A DNA stretch of 6,934 nt, from the IMG/VR virus record IMGVR_UViG_2671180828_000012, positions 1-6,934 of that record; one strand, 5' to 3'. This document shows positions 1 through 6,934 of the stretch, piece by piece. Numbering within the stretch: the first letter of the stretch is position 1; every line of letters begins with the position of its first letter. This DNA is from a virus (lineage: Duplodnaviria; Heunggongvirae; Uroviricota; Caudoviricetes). Both the position numbers and the translations under genes were made by a program. The notes under the pieces are model-generated. The model saw only the letters and a program-made list of their open reading frames with translations, was not told the origin of the DNA and did not search any database.

Positions 1-20
1 ATCAGACAGGCAGGATTATT

Positions 21-3000
21 TCAGCGCATATCATAGAGGAGGTCATGGTGGATAAGGGAAAAGAGATTCTTGCAGTACGAAATGCAGCCAGCAACGAATA
101 TGGCGGGATAAACTGTGAGGTGCAGTTTGAAGACGCGGTGAATGAAAAAGGGGAACAGGTATGGCTGCCGTATACTGCAACGGAACACATCGTTCATGAA
201 CAACTGATTCCCCTGCGCCACAAATAACGGCGTGGTGTTGCCGTCCTCCGGGTTAATCATCGCAATACGGTCAGCCAGCAGCAGTATGTTGCTCAGGGGC
301 TGGCCATCAGTATCCTCAATCCCCGCTCCAATACCGGCAACATAGGGTATGCCATTTTTTGTTTTCTGTACCTTCAGCATGTAAAGTGCAGCAAGGTCAT
401 CATTTGTGTCCTTCTGCACGCGCTGTATCTGCTGTATGGTGGCGCTCTGGTCCTCCAGCGTTTTACTGACCGTCTGTGTGATTTCATTGCGGGTTTCGGT
501 GATGGTGGTCTTCATCTCCGCCATCTCATCCGCAAGCTGGCTGTTGTCTATCAGCTCCCACAGCCCCTGAGCCAGATGCAGTTTTCCTATTTTTTCCCGA
601 AACAGCCCCAGATACCCTTCTGCATCATTGCTGGCCCGTCCACTGGCTTCAACAAAAGCAGATTTCCCCACCAGGTTAACGCTGCGTACATAAAACCAGA
701 AATCCTTCCCGGGCTTAATGTGCGGGCCGGAGACAGTCCACTGACTGCCAGTCCCCAGATAACGGGCAGATTTTTCCACCTGTGCCGTGTTCGTGATGCG
801 TTTTTCTGAGAACCAGAATTCAAACTGTACCGTCGGGTCATACACCGCAAGACGCGGGACCGCTGTTATCTGAAAATACCCCGGCGTCAGTTCAATGGTG
901 GCGGGTTTTGCTGGCGCGTTAATCCGGAAGGTGGTGGTGGCCGGTTCGCCCTGCTGGCCATAACTGTTAATTGCCCTGACTGTCAGGGTGTATTCCCCGA
1001 GCGGCAGACCACTGAAACGATGCTCTGTATCCGCAGTGATAGCGGTGGTCACCAGACGGCTGTCTTCTCCGCTTCCGCTGGTCAGTCGCAGACTGAAGCG
1101 CACCCCCTTCACCACCCGCGGCGTGTCCCATTTCGCCTGTGCCAGATACTGGCCGTCAGCTGCGCTCACCTCCACCGTCAGGTGCTGCACTGCCGGTGGG
1201 ATGACGCTGTTCAGGGAGCCTGACTGCGGCTCAAAGCGGGCACCGTTATCCACGATGGCTTCTTTTTCCGGTACGTGCTGCACTGCCGTGATGGCAAAGG
1301 TGCCGTCCGTGTTTTCCCGGATGGAGACACAGCGGAACAGGCGACGACGCAGTGACGGCAGGGAGAGTCCCCATACACCGTATGTCTCCACACCATCAGG
1401 CAGGGTGCTGACCTGTATCCGGTCCGGCGCGGGGTGTGCAGTGATGGCCACGCTCACCGGCTTACCGCTGCCGTTAATCAGGTTCACCGTGGCGGCACCG
1501 GTCTCCGGCAGGGTCACCTCACGGTCCAGTGTCAGGGTGCGGCTGGCGGCATCGATGGACAGGACACGTCCGCCGGTCATGGTCCCGGCATAGTCGTTAT
1601 CACAGATTTCAATAATGTCACCGGGTGTGTGACGCAGCCCCTGTGACCCGAGCGTGAAATCCACCGTCTGCGTTTCCAGCAGTCCGGTCTTTATCACCCA
1701 CAGCCCGGCACGGTGGGCCTGACCGCGACTGGTGCAGCCGAACGCATCCATCTTCAGCAGGTTGCGCCCGTAGCGCAGTATGGCTTCCGGGTCTTCCACC
1801 AGTTCCGTGGAGGTCTGCCAGCCGTTCTGCGGGTCGGTGTAATTCACCTCCACCGCCGTGTGCCGGTCCTTCAGGGCACTGAAGCTGTAGCGAAACCCCA
1901 CGCCGTTATCATCCACCACCACATCGCAGTTGGTGTACGGCCACACCACATCCGACAGGCGGTCCTGAACAAACGTCAGCATCTGGCCGTTCCATACCGG
2001 CATACAGCGCATCGCCGAGCAGAAATCACTGAGAACATCCCACGCCTTACGCTGTTGTGCCAGGTACGCATTGAAGGTCATCCGCGGCTCGGTGCCCCCG
2101 AAGCCATCCGGCACCATCTGGTCGCAGTACTGCCCGATGGCATACAGCGCCCACTTGTCCACATCCGCCGCCCCCAGACGTTTTCCCATGCCGTAGCGCG
2201 GGTGAGTCAGCATGTCCCACAGACACCAGGCCGGATTGTTGCTGTATGCCGGTTTCAGACTGCCGTCCCAGATACCACTGTACGTGCGTTTTTCCGGGTC
2301 ATAGTTTGACGGCACCTGGATGATGCGACCGCGGATATGGTAGTTCACCGTCATCTGCTGACCACCAAACTGCTCCGCATCCACCTGCAGCCCCACAATG
2401 GCCGTGTTCGGGTAGCACTGTTTCACATCGATAATTTCAGTGTACGATGACCAGAGCGTTCTGTTCTGCAACTGGTCCGTGGTGCTGTCCGCCGTCTCCC
2501 TGACCATCCGGATGTTAAAGGGCCGGGGCGGCAGATTATCCAGAATCACCGAGGCCAGGAACTGTGAGGTGGTCTTGCCGTTAATGGTGACGTCCTTTTC
2601 CGTCACCCAGCGACCATTACGCTGTAACTGAATCAGAATCCGGACAGAGGAAGGATTACGGTCGCCCTTTGACGTGGTCTCCACCAGTGACTGCACCCCG
2701 AAGGTCACCCGCAGGCGGTCAATGTTCGCGGACGTAATGGTGCGCGTCACCGGTTTTGCCTTCGTCACTTCCACGCCCAGTCCGGTTTCAGCTCCGGAGG
2801 ACTCAAAGCCTTCAGGTGGTGTCTGCTCCTGCTCCCCGGCGCGCCAGACCGCCGTCACACCGTGTATCACGGGATTACCGTCCGTGCCCGTCAGCGGGGT
2901 TTTGTTCACCAGAATACTCTGCAGGCCTTTCACCGGGCCTTCTATCGGTCCCTCACCAATCGCATCAATCACACTCATCATCTGCGTGGATTTGAGATTA

Positions 3001-3047
3001 TCCTTCGCCTCACGAGGCGTGTGTGCCTTACCGCCACCTTTTCCCAT
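21..3047 (-). CDS. J: Lambda J-like tail tip / host specificity protein, C-terminally truncated (1008 aa versus ~1130 aa in lambda)
   Basis: Translation starts MGKGGGKAHTPREAKDNLKSTQ and is collinear with lambda gpJ as I recall it for ~955 residues, through FVAQGNQLFMNDVF. The last 53 residues (RCSIRQPYLFPFF...) are unrelated and end at TGA 21-23. ATG at 3047-3045 with AGGGGAAGG upstream. Confidence 0.9.
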   Translation of the reverse strand: MGKGGGKAHTPREAKDNLKSTQMMSVIDAIGEGPIEGPVKGLQSILVNKTPLTGTDGNPVIHGVTAVWRAGEQEQTPPEGFESSGAETGLGVEVTKAKPVTRTITSANIDRLRVTFGVQSLVETTSKGDRNPSSVRILIQLQRNGRWVTEKDVTINGKTTSQFLASVILDNLPPRPFNIRMVRETADSTTDQLQNRTLWSSYTEIIDVKQCYPNTAIVGLQVDAEQFGGQQMTVNYHIRGRIIQVPSNYDPEKRTYSGIWDGSLKPAYSNNPAWCLWDMLTHPRYGMGKRLGAADVDKWALYAIGQYCDQMVPDGFGGTEPRMTFNAYLAQQRKAWDVLSDFCSAMRCMPVWNGQMLTFVQDRLSDVVWPYTNCDVVVDDNGVGFRYSFSALKDRHTAVEVNYTDPQNGWQTSTELVEDPEAILRYGRNLLKMDAFGCTSRGQAHRAGLWVIKTGLLETQTVDFTLGSQGLRHTPGDIIEICDNDYAGTMTGGRVLSIDAASRTLTLDREVTLPETGAATVNLINGSGKPVSVAITAHPAPDRIQVSTLPDGVETYGVWGLSLPSLRRRLFRCVSIRENTDGTFAITAVQHVPEKEAIVDNGARFEPQSGSLNSVIPPAVQHLTVEVSAADGQYLAQAKWDTPRVVKGVRFSLRLTSGSGEDSRLVTTAITADTEHRFSGLPLGEYTLTVRAINSYGQQGEPATTTFRINAPAKPATIELTPGYFQITAVPRLAVYDPTVQFEFWFSEKRITNTAQVEKSARYLGTGSQWTVSGPHIKPGKDFWFYVRSVNLVGKSAFVEASGRASNDAEGYLGLFREKIGKLHLAQGLWELIDNSQLADEMAEMKTTITETRNEITQTVSKTLEDQSATIQQIQRVQKDTNDDLAALYMLKVQKTKNGIPYVAGIGAGIEDTDGQPLSNILLLADRIAMINPEDGNTTPLFVAQGNQLFMNDVFRCSIRQPYLFPFFIHRVFKLHLTVYPAIFVAGCISYCKNLFSLIHHDLLYDMR
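45..227 (+). CDS. Hypothetical protein, probable 5' fragment of a gene truncated at the prophage deletion junction (60 aa; last ~14 codons lie in antisense J-homologous DNA)
   Basis: ATG at 45 (or GTG at 48) directly preceded by AGAGGAGG (35-42), a strong Shine-Dalgarno. The ORF is convergent with J and runs ~45 nt past the point where J homology begins (~183), so the C-terminus is probably junk from fusion. No family recognised. Confidence 0.35.
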   Translation: MVDKGKEILAVRNAASNEYGGINCEVQFEDAVNEKGEQVWLPYTATEHIVHEQLIPLRHK

Positions 3048-3150
3048 ACAGCCTTCCCCTGAATAAATTAACCGCCACTTGCCATTCCGTACAGAAGTCG
3101 GATATCCTTCGCCCGAAAAGCATGAAACACATTTCTGCCATGCTAAAGAG

Positions 3151-3186
3151 AAACCCCGGTATCAGCAGATACCGGGGTTTTCTTTC
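3151..3186. terminator. Perfect 13-bp inverted repeat with 4-nt loop, flanked by T-rich sequence on both strands (putative bidirectional intrinsic terminator)
   Basis: aaaccccggtatc (3151-3163), loop agca, gataccggggttt (3168-3180) is a perfect 13-bp stem. It is followed by tctttc on the plus strand and by ctcttta on the minus strand. It lies ~100 nt upstream of the J start codon. Confidence 0.5.
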
Positions 3187-3252
3187 ATGCCCACCGATAA
3201 TCCTGTTGGTTAAAACCGGTAATGGCATAAAAATTCTGAATATCTTCACATT

Positions 3253-3280
3253 TTCACAAACTGACCGTGGCGCGTATAAT
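3253..3280 (+). promoter_or_regulatory. Sigma70-like promoter: -35 TTCACA (3253-3258), 16-bp spacer, -10 TATAAT (3275-3280), with an A/T-rich upstream tract
   Basis: Consensus -10 hexamer TATAAT and a 5/6 match to TTGACA at 16-bp spacing. The A/T-rich stretch 3219-3245 is UP-element-like. Predicted start near G3287. Confidence 0.4.
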
Positions 3281-3286
3281 TTCTCT

Positions 3287-3385
3287 GCGTTAATTTTTTT
3301 GTCGTGATATAAGAATAATTCCTTACACTTAATCTTCGTAACTCTCCCGCAGTTCCTGTCCGCGATCACTGCGGGATTTTTTTAT
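3287..3385 (+). ncRNA. Candidate ~100-nt small RNA (moron-like), antisense to the late tail operon in the I-J intergenic insert
   Basis: Bounded by the promoter at 3253-3280 and the intrinsic terminator at 3345-3392. No ATG-initiated ORF lies between them. The body is AU-rich with C/U-rich tracts (UUCCUUACACUU, CUCUCCC) and ends in a GC stem plus U-tract, as in Hfq-type sRNAs. Ends are predicted, not measured. Confidence 0.3.
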
Positions 3386-3392
3386 TCTTTTT
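3345..3392 (+). terminator. Rho-independent terminator: 9-bp GC-rich stem, 14-nt loop, U-tract
   Basis: tcccgcagt (3345-3353) pairs perfectly with actgcggga (3368-3376), followed by tttttttattcttttt. It is only terminator-like in the plus orientation; the minus-strand flank is not U-rich. Confidence 0.55.
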
Positions 3393-3609
3393 ACCCCTGC
3401 CGCCCGATAACCACGACCTTTCCGCCCCCGCCTTCATCACGGGTGCTGATGTCCTGGGATATACGGCGGGAGCCAACCAGCATTTCACCGGAGATATTCA
3501 CGCAGGGGAAATATCTTTCCCCCTCCGGCGTGCTTACCACGAAGCCGCACGACTCCGCAGGCGCACACCGCCGGGCATGCGCCAGAATCGCTGATTCAGT
3601 CTGTGTCAT
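3391..3609 (-). pseudogene. In-frame fusion remnant of tail assembly genes K (N-terminal ~42 aa) and I (C-terminal ~30 aa)
   Basis: ORF from ATG 3609 encodes MTQTESAILAHARRCAPAESCGFVVSTPEGERYFPCVNISGE, matching the lambda gpK N-terminus as recalled, then MLVGSRRISQDISTRDEGGGGKVVVIGRQG, which resembles the lambda gpI C-terminus (...GEMRVGSRVVSQEISTADEGDGGQVVVIGR). Stop TAA at 3393-3391. The K catalytic region and most of I are missing. Confidence 0.7.
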
Positions 3610-3619
3610 AAACCGGGAT

Positions 3620-4318
3620 TTACTGCGAAAGTTTATTAATGGAAAGGAAACCGCCAAAATTGCCGACATTCCTGCGCAGTTCACACCCGCGCATGCACTT
3701 GCTGCATCTGTCCTTACGGATATCCGTGGTGGGTTTATCGAACTCATCCGCCACAGCCCCGCCCGTGTAACCACACTCATCAGAGCGGTAGGTCCACATA
3801 CAGGTGTTCGCCAGCATGATACGACCGGGAAACAGCGCCCCGTCCGTCTCGGTCGGTGTGGCCAGCACAAACGAGGCCGTCATGGCTGTCAGCTGCGACA
3901 TCTGCTCCACCACCCAGCGGTCACTCAACTCCTGCTCCGGGTCCGCCGCCGGATTGCCCGCAACGAAATTCACCGCATCCAGAAAACGGGCATACACCCG
4001 GCGGCGGACCACCGTGGCCCCCACCAGACTCTGCAGGTCTTCCGCCATCCCGGTGACCAGACCGAACAGATTGGACACCGTCAGCGACGGTCTGGCACTG
4101 CTGCCCTTCCCGCTCATCTCAAAACCGCTGCCGTCAATCGGGTATGCCTGATATTGCCGCCCCTGCCAGGTGACCGGCTCCCCTTTTTCATTCAGCTCAT
4201 TACAGAAAAAATACCGCTCACCACCCTGCACCGTCAGGTCAATTTCCCAGAGTACCACCCGCGGTGACTGCTCTGATTTAACCGACTCGCTCAGACTTTC
4301 TTCGTGAATATCCTGCAT
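3620..4318 (-). CDS. L: Lambda L-like tail tip assembly protein (232 aa)
   Basis: MQDIHEESLSE...VVLWEIDLT...GGERYFFCNE...GNFGGFLSINKLSQ is full length and collinear with lambda gpL. The ATG overlaps the M stop codon (ATGA), as in lambda. Confidence 0.93.
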   Translation of the reverse strand: MQDIHEESLSESVKSEQSPRVVLWEIDLTVQGGERYFFCNELNEKGEPVTWQGRQYQAYPIDGSGFEMSGKGSSARPSLTVSNLFGLVTGMAEDLQSLVGATVVRRRVYARFLDAVNFVAGNPAADPEQELSDRWVVEQMSQLTAMTASFVLATPTETDGALFPGRIMLANTCMWTYRSDECGYTGGAVADEFDKPTTDIRKDRCSKCMRGCELRRNVGNFGGFLSINKLSQ

Positions 4319-4647
4319 CAGTTCACCACCTGCTTAAACTCCGCGCTGAACTCAACGCGCAACATCCCGACCCGCGCAGACCACCCGGCACAGGTCACCT
4401 TTATCTGCCGGTATGCATAGGGTGGCTTCCACAAAAATGCCTTCCAGCCACCGTGCTCTGCCAGGAACGCTTCCAGATGCCGGGCCTCCTCCCGGGTCAC
4501 GGAAAGCGTCACCCTGTATGTTTTCAGGTCAGCATTCAGCCCTGCCGCCATACGCTGTGAGTACCCGTCACCAAAACGCACTTCACGCACCGATGGCTGC
4601 GAGTTCACCTCCATATCCGGCTTCACTTTCCAGCGAAAGGTTTTCAT
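4318..4647 (-). CDS. M: Lambda M-like tail tip assembly protein (109 aa)
   Basis: MKTFRWKVKPDMEV...VRFGDGYSQR...MLRVEFSAEFKQVVN is collinear with lambda gpM. The start overlaps the H' stop (ATGA) and the stop overlaps the L start. Confidence 0.93.
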   Translation of the reverse strand: MKTFRWKVKPDMEVNSQPSVREVRFGDGYSQRMAAGLNADLKTYRVTLSVTREEARHLEAFLAEHGGWKAFLWKPPYAYRQIKVTCAGWSARVGMLRVEFSAEFKQVVN

Positions 4648-5840
4648 CCACCGCTCCCTGATAACATACCGCCATCACGCAACTGCAGCCGGAGTTCATC
4701 CTGTGCCCCCTTGCGGGCCATCTCATACACCGCTTTCATCAGCTGCGGCCCTGCCCGCCCGTTGGGGCCGTCGTTCTGAATCACCACGTGATTGTTCTGA
4801 TTAAAATTAATGCCTTCCGCCCGCCGCATCTGCGCCGGACTTCCGGCACCGCCGACATAACCACCTTCCGCATAGCCCCGCATCAGGCGGTACAGATTGC
4901 CGACACCAATCCGGCTGGTCGCCTCCTTCGTGAAGACAAACTCCCCGCGATGAACAATCCCCGCAGGTTCATATTTACCCCCCGTCCCCGTAAATCCCCC
5001 GGTCGCGAAATGGAAGTTCGCCGCCGCAGCCTGAATGGCCGTCCCCGTGGAGGCAGACGCACCACCACCGAAAGCACCGCCAATGGCGCTGCCGATACTC
5101 CCGACTATCCCCACCATCGCCTGCTTCAGAAAAATCTCTGTCAGCATGGACAGCACAGAACGGGTGAAACCACGCCAGTTCTGTTCGCTGCCGGTCAGCA
5201 TCGCTGCCATATTCTGTGCAATACCGTCAAAGGTCTGCGTGGCCGCGTTTTTAACCTGCGAAAAACTGTCCGTCGCACTTTCCGCCCACTCGCCCCAGCC
5301 GGACTTCATCCCGGCCATCCAGCTTCCACGAAGCTGCTCCTCCGCAGACCAGGTGTTCTTCAGTGCAGATGTGGCCTTCGCCAGCGCAGCCGGATTATCA
5401 CCGTACACCTCACGAAGGCGCTGCTCTTCCGACTCCCGCTGCGCCTGACGGTCGGTGAGTCCGCGGGCTTTTGCGCTGATTGCCGCCTGCTTCGCGCTCT
5501 GCTGCTGTTCAAACCGCGCCGCCTGCTGTGCCAGCTCATTCAGCCGTTTCTGGTGTTCAATCTTGTCGCCCAGCTCAGCCAGCTGGCGTTTGTACTCCAG
5601 CGTTTCTTTCTCATGGGCCAGCAGGGATTTTTCCTGCTCAGATACCATGCGGCATTTAGCGGCATTCATCGTACACTCAACGGTTAGCTCTTCATTCGTG
5701 GCATTCACCTGAAAGGTCCGGGAGTGTAATTGCGTACATTTACCACTGAACGAACCTTCAACAAGAACACGACCACGCTGCAAAATACGGAACGGAATTG
5801 TTCCCTGAAAAGGCTTTACGGTTACCAGTAATTTCTTCAT
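4644..5840 (-). CDS. H: Chimeric tape-measure protein: foreign ~61-aa N-terminal module fused in frame to the C-terminal ~335 aa of a lambda H-like tape measure (398 aa)
   Basis: From SEQEKSLLAHEKETLEYKRQLAELG to the end (...KAVYEMARKGAQDELRLQLRDGGMLSGSGG) it is collinear with the lambda gpH C-terminal third as recalled. The N-terminus MKKLLVTVKPFQGTIPFRILQRGRVLVEGSFSGKCTQLHSRTFQVNATNEELTVECTMNAAKCRM is unrelated. ATG at 5840 has GGAG 7 nt upstream. The listed ORF start at 5858 is a TTG and less likely. Confidence 0.8.
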   Translation of the reverse strand: MKKLLVTVKPFQGTIPFRILQRGRVLVEGSFSGKCTQLHSRTFQVNATNEELTVECTMNAAKCRMVSEQEKSLLAHEKETLEYKRQLAELGDKIEHQKRLNELAQQAARFEQQQSAKQAAISAKARGLTDRQAQRESEEQRLREVYGDNPAALAKATSALKNTWSAEEQLRGSWMAGMKSGWGEWAESATDSFSQVKNAATQTFDGIAQNMAAMLTGSEQNWRGFTRSVLSMLTEIFLKQAMVGIVGSIGSAIGGAFGGGASASTGTAIQAAAANFHFATGGFTGTGGKYEPAGIVHRGEFVFTKEATSRIGVGNLYRLMRGYAEGGYVGGAGSPAQMRRAEGINFNQNNHVVIQNDGPNGRAGPQLMKAVYEMARKGAQDELRLQLRDGGMLSGSGG

Positions 5841-5863
5841 GCATTCTCCGGATAACAAAAATA

Positions 5864-6331
5864 CTAGTTAATACACTGAGTGCGGATATAGTCCTGCGCC
5901 CCTTCCAGTTGCTTCTGCATTGTCATCAACCGCTCTCTGAGGGTGAAATAATCCCGTTCAGCGGTGTCTGCCAGTCGGGGGCCGGTTGCATTATCCACGC
6001 GGGCGGTGCCGGTGGCTTCACGCACGGAACCTGGACAGGTGGCGTTGATACGCAGGCTGCGGCGACCAGCGGCAACGTCAGCGCGCAGAGTTTCATTTTC
6101 AGCTCTCGCATCGGCTAACTCCTTTGTGTATTTTTCATCCAGCGCAACAACATCACGCTGACGCTGCTGCATGTCAGTAATGGTTGTGTTTGCCAGCTCC
6201 AGCTCTCTGGCTTTTTTATCGCGCTGCGCTTTGTAGGTGATGGCGTTATCGCGGTAATGATTCAGCCCCAGACTAAGCACACCACAGGCTACCAGCAGGA
6301 CAATAATCACCACACACAGAACACGGTTCAT
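5864..6331 (-). CDS. Rz: Rz-like i-spanin (inner-membrane spanin subunit, 155 aa)
   Basis: [48 protein letters not shown]...[29 protein letters not shown] is collinear with lambda Rz: N-terminal transmembrane segment then coiled-coil periplasmic domain. ATG at 6331; the longer ORF listed to 6415 is an upstream extension. Confidence 0.9.
5926..6111 (-). CDS. Rz1: Rz1-like o-spanin (outer-membrane lipoprotein), fully embedded in the +1 frame of Rz
   Basis: [61 protein letters not shown] has a signal peptide with lipobox-like AAAC and a proline-rich body, and is collinear with lambda Rz1. Confidence 0.85.
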
Positions 6332-6430: not shown

Positions 6431-6613
6431 TCACGATTTCAGCGCAATGACCAGTTTTGCCAGCCCATACAGTATCGGAGACACAGCGATACCAACCGCC
6501 ACCCACTTAATAGCAAAAGCCAGCGCTCTGCTGATGTCATCAGTTACTGGCGCTTTCAGTTCAAGGCCGTTTTTCATAGTCAACCTCAACAGAATTCGTT
6601 TATACTTTTCCAT
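6431..6613 (-). CDS. Small tail-anchored membrane protein (60 aa) at the position where a lambdoid lysis cassette carries its holin; family not recognised
   Basis: ATG at 6613-6611 preceded by AAGGGAGAAC. Product MEKYKRILLRLTMKNGLELKAPVTDDISRALAFAIKWVAVGIAVSPILYGLAKLVIALKS has a basic soluble N-terminus and a single C-terminal transmembrane helix. Stop TGA at 6433-6431. It does not resemble lambda S or phage 21 S as I recall them. Confidence 0.45.
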   Translation of the reverse strand: MEKYKRILLRLTMKNGLELKAPVTDDISRALAFAIKWVAVGIAVSPILYGLAKLVIALKS

Positions 6614-6646
6614 GTTCTCCCTTGCCTTATCCAAGGTCAGAAACAC

Positions 6647-6690
6647 AAAACCCCGCTTGCAGCCAACAAACGGGGTTTTTACTTTTATTC
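6647..6690. terminator. GC-rich hairpin flanked by T-runs on both strands (bidirectional intrinsic terminator), ~30 nt upstream of the 60-aa ORF
   Basis: aaaaccccg (6647-6655) pairs with cggggtttt (6671-6679) around a 15-nt loop, followed by ttacttttattc on plus and by ttttgtgtttctgacc on minus. Its position relative to the lysis genes recalls lambda tR', but no convincing upstream late promoter was found. Confidence 0.4.
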
Positions 6691-6702: not shown

Positions 6703-6934
6703 TTAGTTCGCAGGATTTCGTGTTATCCGTCCGTGTGAGCAAACCGCATTTTTCAGCAAAATATTCTGCTTATCTGTCAATTCCCCAGCACGCCAGCGCA
6801 CTCTCCTGGTCGCGACGGGATACCTGACCGTAACAGTTGTTTGAGCGAATACGGCAGTCTCTGCCACCGTCCTTAATCCACCAGCGAATCGCTTCGCATG
6901 CTCCCCTGCGATCACCTGCATTAATTCGTCTGTA
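6703..6934 (-). CDS. 3' end of an ORF entering from beyond the right edge (at least 76 codons); unknown function
   Basis: Open frame from the window edge to TAA at 6705-6703 (...ELTDKQNILLKNAVCSHGRITRNPAN). In a lambdoid layout this slot would hold the Q antiterminator or a nin-region gene, but I see no Q-like zinc-finger motif. The internal ATG at 6921 has no Shine-Dalgarno. Confidence 0.25.
   Translation of the reverse strand, partial: TDELMQVIAGEHAKRFAGGLRTVAETAVFAQTTVTVRYPVATRRVRWRAGELTDKQNILLKNAVCSHGRITRNPAN

What the first reader, a model, noticed from the sequence alone, without database searches (positions are those of the whole stretch)
4644..5858. Chimeric tape-measure gene: foreign low-GC N-terminal module with its own RBS fused to the last third of H, directly after Rz/Rz1
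Between the Rz stop (5864) and the H-homologous region there are no cos, terminase, portal, capsid, tail-tube or tail-chaperone genes, and no N-terminal two-thirds of H. Instead a ~185-bp segment (5656-5840), visibly lower in GC than its flanks, provides an ATG with GGAG and 61 codons that read in frame into H at ...CRM|VSEQEKSLLAH. The N-terminal module has no coiled-coil character and carries three Cys. It may be the start of a moron or accessory gene captured by the deletion. The resulting 398-aa protein keeps the H C-terminal region and is translationally coupled to intact M and L through ATGA overlaps.
Basis: partly seen in the sequence, partly recalled or inferred. Interest (0 to 1): 0.55.

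Follow-up and report, generated by a model that had tools for sequence, protein, structure and literature searches.

The report
Deletion-made fusion gene, decayed prophage
A deletion of about 12-13.5 kb in a lambda-like prophage of E. coli joined the start of a small gene of unknown function to the last 38% of the tail tape-measure gene, leaving an in-frame but almost certainly functionless fusion, which is ordinary prophage decay.

Summary
A 398-codon ORF (ATG 5840, stop 4644-4646, minus strand) starts 23 nt after Rz with a GGAG ribosome-binding site. The N-terminal module is the start of a conserved 74-aa hypothetical gene (WP_000735655.1, phrog_2571). In intact lambdoid prophages and in the inducible Stx2 phage ASU11 that gene lies directly after Rz. 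A deletion across a 4-nt microhomology (TATC, 5641-5644) removed its last codons, cos, all head genes, the tail genes Z to T, and H codons 1-538 of 870. The loss is 13,548 bp measured on prophage CB6837 and 11,626 bp measured on ASU11. No phage record and no complete E. coli genome carries this joint. The same 6.9-kb contig holds two more unique rearrangements: an in-frame K::I deletion, and J truncated by an inversion-type joint. The element is therefore a heavily decayed prophage and the fusion is a relic. One side observation is unexplained: other independent joints break the small gene within about 3 nt of the same position.

The parts
6770..6934 (-). 3' end of the lysozyme gene R, cut by the contig end
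   Evidence: Window 6934-6615 aligns to L003 5899-6219, and the lysozyme CDS there ends at 6063. The annotation under the matches reads 'lysozyme'.
5864..6331 (-). Rz (i-spanin), 155 aa, intact
   Evidence: Pfam Phage_lysis, E 9.6e-50. A gene is called at this position in L002.
5926..6111 (-). Rz1 (o-spanin lipoprotein), embedded in Rz
   Evidence: Pfam Rz1, E 4.3e-21.
5846..5849 (-). GGAG ribosome-binding site, 5 nt before the ATG at 5840
   Evidence: Read directly from the sequence.
4644..5840 (-). Fusion ORF of 398 aa (small-gene 5' part joined to the H 3' part)
   Evidence: phrog_2571 matches residues 1-68 and tape-measure PHROGs match residues 58-397.
5645..5840 (-). The part derived only from the 74-aa hypothetical gene (codons 1-65 and the first base of codon 66), GC about 45%
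   Evidence: Residues are identical to WP_000735655.1. The DNA is 100% identical to phage ASU11 over 220 nt and 95.7% identical to the CB6837 prophage.
5641..5644 (-). Deletion joint: TATC microhomology shared by both parent sequences
   Evidence: The left arm ends at 5641 and the right arm starts at 5644. Three-way alignment.
4644..5640 (-). H-derived part, residues 539-870 of an 870-aa tape-measure protein. It includes the Tape_meas_lam_C domain and the C-terminal tip helix.
   Evidence: 329/332 residues identical to the L003 H. Pfam match. Aligns to lambda gpH 513-852 in PDB 8IYK.
4318..4647 (-). M (distal tail protein), intact, overlapping the fusion stop by ATGA
   Evidence: Pfam Phage_min_tail. 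109/109 residues identical to the L003 M. Overlap read.
3620..4318 (-). L (tail tip hub protein), intact, TGATG overlap with M
   Evidence: Pfam Phage_tail_L, E 5.5e-92. 228/232 residues identical. Overlap read.
3391..3609 (-). K'::'I in-frame fusion (72 aa): K codons 1-42 joined to the last 30 codons of I. Joint at 3485-3490. 1,103 bp deleted.
182..3047 (-). J truncated after codon 955 of 1157; the C-terminal part is lost
   Evidence: Pfam domains of J are listed.
1..185 (-). Inverted piece of the DUF4376 tail-fibre gene joined to J (inversion-type joint, 4-nt overlap at 182-185)
   Evidence: 100% identical to E. coli S1-CAM-01-A and O104:H4, but in the opposite orientation relative to J.

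Best explanation
The ORF is a by-product of prophage decay. The parent was a lambda-like prophage of the kind integrated next to potB in E. coli CB6837 and 23CRST047. Its gene order is R, Rz/Rz1, a 74-aa hypothetical gene, a variable region, cos, the head genes, Z U V G T H M L K I J, and the tail-fibre genes. One illegitimate recombination event across a 4-nt microhomology (TATC) joined codon 66-67 of the 74-aa gene to codon 538-539 of H. It removed about 11.6-13.5 kb, including cos, terminase, portal, capsid, tail tube, the tail chaperones and the N-terminal 62% of H. The deleted length happens to be a multiple of three, so the small gene's start codon and ribosome-binding site now drive translation into the H C-terminal region. 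The native ATGA and TGATG overlaps then carry translation on into M and L. Transcription, if any, would come from the phage late promoter upstream of the lysis genes (inferred; that promoter lies outside the contig). The product cannot do a tape-measure's job. It lacks the N-terminal two-thirds and the G/GT chaperones and there is no tube protein. On the same contig K and I are destroyed and J is truncated. It is best regarded as a recent, strain-specific pseudogene-like relic. Shown here: the two parent sequences, the joint, the deleted content, the uniqueness of the joint, and the companion rearrangements. Inferred: the mechanism (replication slippage or end joining), the lack of function, and the route of expression.
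For: The left arm is the 74-aa gene that follows Rz in intact prophages. It is 100% identical over 220 nt to the mitomycin-C-induced phage ASU11, where the gene is separate from H. The right arm is H from codon 539, at 98% DNA identity and 329/332 aa identity to 23CRST047. The joint is the TATC microhomology. The deleted interval is 13,548 bp in CB6837 and 11,626 bp in ASU11. cosN (GGGCGGCGACCT) lies inside the deleted interval, at L005:2437. The joint is absent from 5,426 complete E. coli genomes, 50,697 phage records, the GTDB representatives and JGI metagenomes. The protein is seen only on this contig and in a Logan assembly. Two further unique rearrangements on the contig destroy K and I and truncate J. 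According to the lambda tail structure, the gpH C-terminal helix needs the gpI trimer in the tip lumen (PMC10721106). Here only the last 30 codons of I survive. A parallel case exists: H truncated next to the lysis genes by an IS3-family element in strain OkiPb01688.
Against: No single reference carries both arms at 98% identity or better. CB6837 is 95.7% and 96.0% identical; 23CRST047 lacks the small gene. The exact parent is therefore not in hand. Two of the three rearrangements are in frame, and M and L are intact and identical or nearly identical to functional copies. A sceptic could read that as selection, but the chance of two in-frame joints is about 1 in 9 and the high identity fits recency just as well. 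Read-level support for the contig could not be examined.
Confidence: 0.87

Rival explanations
1. The joint is an assembly or library artefact: a chimeric draft contig with no such gene in the cell.
For: The window is a complete 6.9-kb short-read contig. It carries three joints that are found in no complete genome. One of them is an inversion-type joint, a common form of library chimera.
Against: The overlap at the joint is 4 nt. A k-mer graph assembler cannot create such a join. The exact 398-aa protein is also recorded from an independent Logan assembly, and two samples carry the contig. ORFs read cleanly through two of the joints. A comparable joint 2 nt away (P0038) is present in at least 20 contigs from several assemblies made by different groups, so deletions of this kind do occur.
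Confidence: 0.06
2. The joint arose by illegitimate recombination between two different resident lambdoid prophages (or a prophage and an infecting phage), not by a deletion inside one prophage.
For: The best matches of the two arms come from different references. The left arm matches ASU11 and CB6837; the right arm matches 23CRST047, whose own Rz is not followed by the small gene.
Against: Lambdoid prophages are mosaic, and CB6837 shows that one prophage can carry both arms in the right order and orientation at the potB site. An exchange between prophages in direct orientation would delete all the chromosome between them. A single intra-prophage deletion is simpler.
Confidence: 0.05
3. The fusion, together with M, L and J', is a retained, expressed module that benefits the host or a co-resident phage, for example a tail-tip decoy or a reservoir for recombination.
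For: The joint is in frame, the ribosome-binding site is intact, and translational coupling to the intact M and L is preserved. The Tape_meas_lam_C domain and the C-terminal helix are retained.
Against: It is seen in one isolate only. K and I are destroyed and J has lost its C-terminal part. No promoter was found next to it. Nothing can be said about selection from a single sequence.
Confidence: 0.02

Closest known systems
Lambda tape-measure protein gpH (PDB 8IYK chain H; Pfam Tape_meas_lam_C)
   Same: Residues 58-397 of the fusion align to gpH 513-852 (E 1.7e-165). The Tape_meas_lam_C domain is present. M and L follow with the native overlaps.
   Different: The N-terminal 62% is missing. The G/T chaperone genes and the tube gene V are absent. 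The N-terminus is replaced by 65-67 residues of an unrelated all-beta protein.
The 74-aa hypothetical protein downstream of Rz (WP_000735655.1; phrog_2571), found in about 20% of complete E. coli genomes and in Stx2 phages
   Same: The first 67 residues are identical. The ribosome-binding site and the 23-nt spacing after the Rz stop are the same.
   Different: The last 7 residues and the stop codon are replaced by 331 residues of H. The predicted final beta-strand (residues 66-71) is lost.
IS-associated truncation of H in defective STEC prophages (for example E. coli OkiPb01688)
   Same: The lysis genes are brought next to a 5'-truncated H followed by M, L, K, I and J. cos and the head genes are lost.
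   Different: In that case an IS3-family element sits at the joint and the H remnant is annotated as a pseudogene without a start. Here there is no IS, the joint is a 4-nt microhomology, and the remnant gained a start codon and ribosome-binding site.
Cryptic lambdoid prophages of E. coli K-12 (DLP12, Rac, Qin) and prophage decay by deletion in general (own knowledge: Casjens 2003; Bobay, Touchon and Rocha 2014; Asadulghani et al. 2009)
   Same: A lysis cassette is retained, structural genes are lost through large deletions, and there are multiple independent lesions.
   Different: Those elements are old and fixed in their lineages. This one is about 98-100% identical to intact prophages and was seen in one isolate, so it looks recent.
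Second deletion allele at the same site (P0038; loci L007-L009)
   Same: The left endpoint is after ATGGTA of the same small gene, 2 nt from the endpoint in the window. The microhomology is 4 nt (GGTA) and the deletion runs rightwards into the structural genes.
   Different: The right endpoint is at the end of gene C, just upstream of D (6.97 kb deleted). The fusion is out of frame and stops after 39 codons. It is present in at least 20 contigs.

Membership tests
Lambda-type tail tape-measure protein (gpH family) | C-terminal Tape_meas_lam_C domain and the C-terminal helix that sits in the tail tip | tested here: met
   Pfam PF09718, E 4e-22, residues 172-246. Aligns to gpH up to residue 852, which covers helix 818-842.
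Lambda-type tail tape-measure protein (gpH family) | Full-length protein of about 850-870 aa with the N-terminal TMP region that sets tail length | tested here: not met
   Only residues 539-870 of 870 are retained. Intact homologues carry PF06791 TMP_2 at the N-terminus; the fusion has no such match.
Lambda-type tail tape-measure protein (gpH family) | Encoded directly after the G/T tail-chaperone genes, within a complete tail operon | tested here: not met
   Rz/Rz1 lie upstream instead. Z, U, V, G and T are absent from the contig.
phrog_2571 / WP_000735655.1 small post-Rz protein | A protein of about 74 aa with conserved C35 and C56 and a conserved N-terminal 56 residues | tested here: inconclusive
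   Residues 1-67 are identical and both conserved Cys are present. The natural C-terminus and stop codon are replaced, so this is a truncated member fused to H.
phrog_2571 / WP_000735655.1 small post-Rz protein | Position immediately downstream of Rz in the late operon | tested here: met
   The gap after the Rz stop is 23 nt in the window and in the CB6837 prophage.
Microhomology-mediated deletion product in a defective prophage | Both arms are collinear, in the same orientation, with one intact prophage, and the interval between them is missing | tested here: met
   L005 573-1202 and 14747-16897 flank the joint. The same order is seen in ASU11.
Microhomology-mediated deletion product in a defective prophage | A short shared sequence at the joint, with no mobile element and no long repeat | tested here: met
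   TATC is the only sequence shared by the two parents at the joint.
Microhomology-mediated deletion product in a defective prophage | Loss of genes essential for phage production | tested here: met
   cos, terminase, portal, capsid, tube and chaperone genes all lie in the deleted interval.
Moron (autonomous accessory gene in a phage late region) | Base composition different from the neighbouring genes | tested here: met
   45.5% GC against 54.5% (Rz) and 60% (H).
Moron (autonomous accessory gene in a phage late region) | Own promoter and terminator flanking the gene | tested here: not met
   No sigma-70-like site on the coding strand before the gene, and no terminator after it in the intact parent, by simple consensus scans. 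These scans are weak evidence.

The most novel reading that the evidence does not exclude
The left endpoint of this deletion may not be random. The small post-Rz gene is broken within about 3 nt of the same position (after ..ATG GTA, codon 66) in several independent joints. These are: this window (to H); the P0038 allele (to the end of gene C, at least 20 contigs); a joint to the interior of an IS3-family transposase gene; two variants that lead into different packaging modules; and a 9-nt in-frame deletion. This could mark a site-preferred DNA break or template-switch point. Such a point would seed both prophage decay and the exchange of lysis and packaging modules among lambdoid phages.
Probability: 0.2. 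Interest if true: 0.5.

Novelty: new member of a known kind. Interest (0 to 1): 0.15.

Why it matters
For this window the result is a clean, fully resolved example of how a prophage decays. One microhomology deletion removes cos and about 17 genes and creates, by chance, an in-frame chimeric ORF. Gene callers then label that ORF 'tape measure protein'. This is useful as an annotation caution and for dating prophage inactivation, but it does not change what is known. The only part that might repay more work is the apparent clustering of independent breakpoints at one spot in the small post-Rz gene. If that is real, it would point to a specific fragile or recombinogenic site at the boundary between the lysis and packaging modules of lambdoid phages.

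Tried and rejected
Searches for the joint elsewhere all came back empty: an exact 36-mer in the GTDB representative genomes, a 28-mer in JGI metagenomes, megablast against complete E. coli genomes, and blastn against phage records.

No Rfam family is present in the window.

Own promoter or terminator for the small gene: none found.

Explanations tested for the recurrent breakpoint:
- It is not cos. cosN lies 1.24 kb downstream.
- The local hairpin is not significant. The 8-nt inverted repeat is at chance level and the fold z-score is 0.48.
- No E. coli CRISPR spacer matches the adjacent 32-mer in the orientation that would give rightward Cas3 deletions.
- A Chi site lies 800 nt to the left. 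A simple model of a double-strand break followed by RecBCD degradation would not preserve the left end.
- IMG/VR scans for non-canonical bases after GGTA, GGTAT and GGTATC found only the 9-nt deletion.
- A spread sample of complete genomes showed no further broken copies.

An IS-mediated origin of the window's joint is rejected because no IS sequence lies at the joint.

Full report
WHAT THE WINDOW IS. The 6,934 bases are one entire draft contig, CDQN01000124.1 of assembly GCA_000938575.1. All genes are on the minus strand. In order they are:
- the 3' end of the lysozyme gene R (6770-6934);
- a spacer with a small ORF of unknown function (phrog_1115);
- Rz (5864-6331) with Rz1 embedded (5926-6111);
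- the ORF under study (4644-5840);
- M (4318-4647) and L (3620-4318);
- a 72-codon K'::'I remnant (3391-3609);
- the normal low-GC I-J spacer;
- J truncated after codon 955 (182-3047);
- 185 nt of an inverted tail-fibre gene fragment (1-185).

THE OBSERVATION. It holds in nearly every detail.
- Rz ends with TAG at 5864-5866. After 23 nt comes an ATG at 5840, preceded by GGAG at 5846-5849 with a 5-nt spacer.
- The ORF has 398 codons.
- GC is 45.5% in 5641-5840, against 60.0% in the rest of the ORF and 54.5% in Rz.
- Cys residues are at 35, 56 and 63.
- The fusion stop overlaps the M start as ATGA. The M/L overlap is TGATG rather than ATGA.

WHERE THE TWO HALVES COME FROM.

The left arm: A 701-nt probe across the joint matched complete E. 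coli genomes only up to window 5641/5639. The annotation under those matches is 'lysis protein | hypothetical protein', and none of 5,426 genomes covers 80% or more of the probe. In E. coli CB6837 the hypothetical protein is WP_000735655.1, 74 aa, starting 23 nt after Rz. Its first 67 residues are identical to the fusion.

The right arm: The whole-window search matched from window 5644 onward to 'phage tail tape measure protein', M, L, K, I and J, at up to 98.4% identity. In prophage 23CRST047, H has 870 codons, and the fusion continues from S539 with 329/332 identical residues.

The joint: A three-way alignment shows that the only sequence shared by the parents at the joint is TATC, at 5641-5644.

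The deleted interval: The CB6837 prophage sits next to potB and carries both arms in the same order and orientation. In its coordinates the missing interval is 13,548 bp. It contains the last codons of the small gene, a TonB-like gene, ynfO, cosN at L005:2437, Nu1, A, W, B, C, D, E, FI, FII, Z, U, V, G, T and H codons 1-538. Phage ASU11, obtained by mitomycin C induction, has a left arm 100% identical over 220 nt. It carries the small gene (unannotated there) and a separate full-length H. Measured on ASU11 the deletion is 11,626 bp. The deleted length is a multiple of three relative to the two reading frames, which is why the fusion is in frame.

Both were run.
- In 50,697 phage records, 184 match one half or the other and none matches both halves contiguously. 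The same is true of the complete E. coli genomes. Exact-joint scans of the GTDB representatives and of JGI metagenomes were empty. The exact protein is on record only from this contig and a Logan assembly.
- The N-terminal module is not a lambda structural protein. It has no Pfam match and belongs to phrog_2571, of unknown function.

WHY THE FUSION IS A RELIC. The retained H part keeps the Tape_meas_lam_C domain and aligns to lambda gpH 513-852. That includes the C-terminal helix (818-842), which in the lambda tail structure forms a three-helix coiled coil in the tip lumen, held by a trimer of gpI residues 135-223 (PMC10721106). The partners it would need are gone:
- there is no tube protein and there are no chaperones;
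- the length-determining N-terminal 62% of H is missing;
- a second, unique 1,103-bp deletion fuses K codon 42 in frame to the last 30 codons of I;
- a third unique joint attaches J codon 955 head-to-head to an inverted DUF4376 tail-fibre fragment.

M is 109/109 and L is 228/232 identical to copies in intact prophages. Together with 98-100% DNA identity of the arms, this fits recent events in one lineage rather than long-term retention. Expression would depend on the phage late promoter, which is off the contig. That step is inference.

RIVAL EXPLANATIONS.
- Assembly artefact: unlikely. A 4-nt overlap cannot be produced by a k-mer graph, and an independent Logan assembly yields the same protein. 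Reads could not be inspected.
- Recombination between two different prophages: cannot be excluded, because no single reference has both arms at 98% or better. CB6837 shows that the simple one-prophage deletion is sufficient.
- A selected function: unsupported. It is seen in a single isolate and the tip genes are broken.

RELATION TO KNOWN THINGS. This is standard prophage decay. A close parallel is E. coli OkiPb01688, where an IS3-family element sits between the lysis region and a 5'-truncated H followed by M, L, K, I and J. The difference here is a clean microhomology joint that happens to supply a start codon.

A SIDE OBSERVATION THAT REMAINS UNEXPLAINED. While characterising the small gene I found other proteins whose sequence departs from the family at the same codon.
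- P0038: at least 20 contigs from several assemblies. It is a 6.97-kb deletion from ..ATGGTA to the end of gene C, just upstream of D, with GGTA microhomology.
- P0040: joins ..ATGGTATC to the interior of an IS3-family transposase gene. It comes from a short, low-coverage metagenome contig, so it is weak evidence.
- P0041 and P0075: they lead after the same GTA into two different packaging modules.
- Four IMG/VR contigs carry a 9-nt deletion that starts at the same GGTA.
- Breaks elsewhere in the gene are fewer, near residues 41, 49 and 51.

I tested and rejected several explanations: cos, a significant hairpin and a CRISPR spacer. Further scans of IMG/VR and of complete genomes added no new cases. 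A protein-based search sees only breaks inside the ORF, and the C-terminal residues of the family are variable anyway. The clustering is therefore suggestive, not established.

VERDICT. It is a new instance of a known kind of event, and its interest is low. The possible breakpoint hot spot is the only lead worth a follow-up.

Noticed in passing
window 3391-3609 (joint at 3485-3490): A second unique deletion (1,103 bp) fuses K codon 42 in frame to the last 30 codons of I, giving a 72-aa ORF that the contig's gene caller did not call. No complete E. coli genome carries this joint.
   Followed up: yes
window 1-185 (joint at 182-185): J is cut after codon 955 and joined, across a 4-nt overlap, to a DUF4376 tail-fibre gene fragment. 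The fragment is 100% identical to O104:H4 and S1-CAM-01-A but lies in the opposite orientation relative to J. This is consistent with a roughly 2.7-kb inversion (J 3' end, lom, stf, DUF4376 5' end). Only one of the two expected junctions is on the contig.
   Followed up: partly
window 5639-5646; L005 1196-1202; L007 1674-1677; L010; L011; L012/L013: Independent novel joints break the small post-Rz gene within about 3 nt of the same position (after ATGGTA, codon 66): two large deletions, a joint to an IS3-family orfB, two different packaging modules, and a 9-nt deletion. The mechanism is unknown. It is not cos, there is no significant hairpin, and no CRISPR spacer was found.
   Followed up: partly
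L005 1175-1200 (equivalent to window 5643-5668): The 3' end of the small gene also carries small indels in other genomes: a 10-nt slippage deletion between the direct repeats ATGCCGC (P0047, 21 member sequences), a 2-nt insertion (P0045), and a 12-nt deletion (L026). The last roughly 18 residues of the family are its variable part.
   Followed up: partly
window 6647-6679, minus strand: A long hairpin (14 pairs, AAAACCCCG...CGGGGTTTT) lies between the end of R and a 71-aa ORF of unknown function (6431-6646, phrog_1115), inside a 440-nt R-Rz spacer. It looks like a terminator in the middle of the late operon.
   Followed up: no
window 3050-3400: The lowest-GC stretch of the window (38-41%) is not an insertion. 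It is the normal I-J intergenic spacer of this prophage type, 99.6-99.8% identical in CFT073, S88 and many other strains.
   Followed up: yes
L138 (E. coli OkiPb01688, NZ_AP042535.1 1104504-1118248): This is another defective prophage in which an IS3-family element lies between the lysis region (with PerC and ynfO) and a 5'-truncated tape-measure gene followed by M, L, K, I, sodC and J. It shows that loss of cos through the 5' part of H recurs by different mechanisms.
   Followed up: partly
L005 970-1242 compared with L003 6820-6838 and L137: The small post-Rz gene is a 273-bp presence/absence cassette among otherwise homologous prophages. Its right boundary (1242/1243) falls in the right arm of an 8-nt inverted repeat whose left arm (1192-1199) abuts the recurrent breakpoint.
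   Followed up: partly
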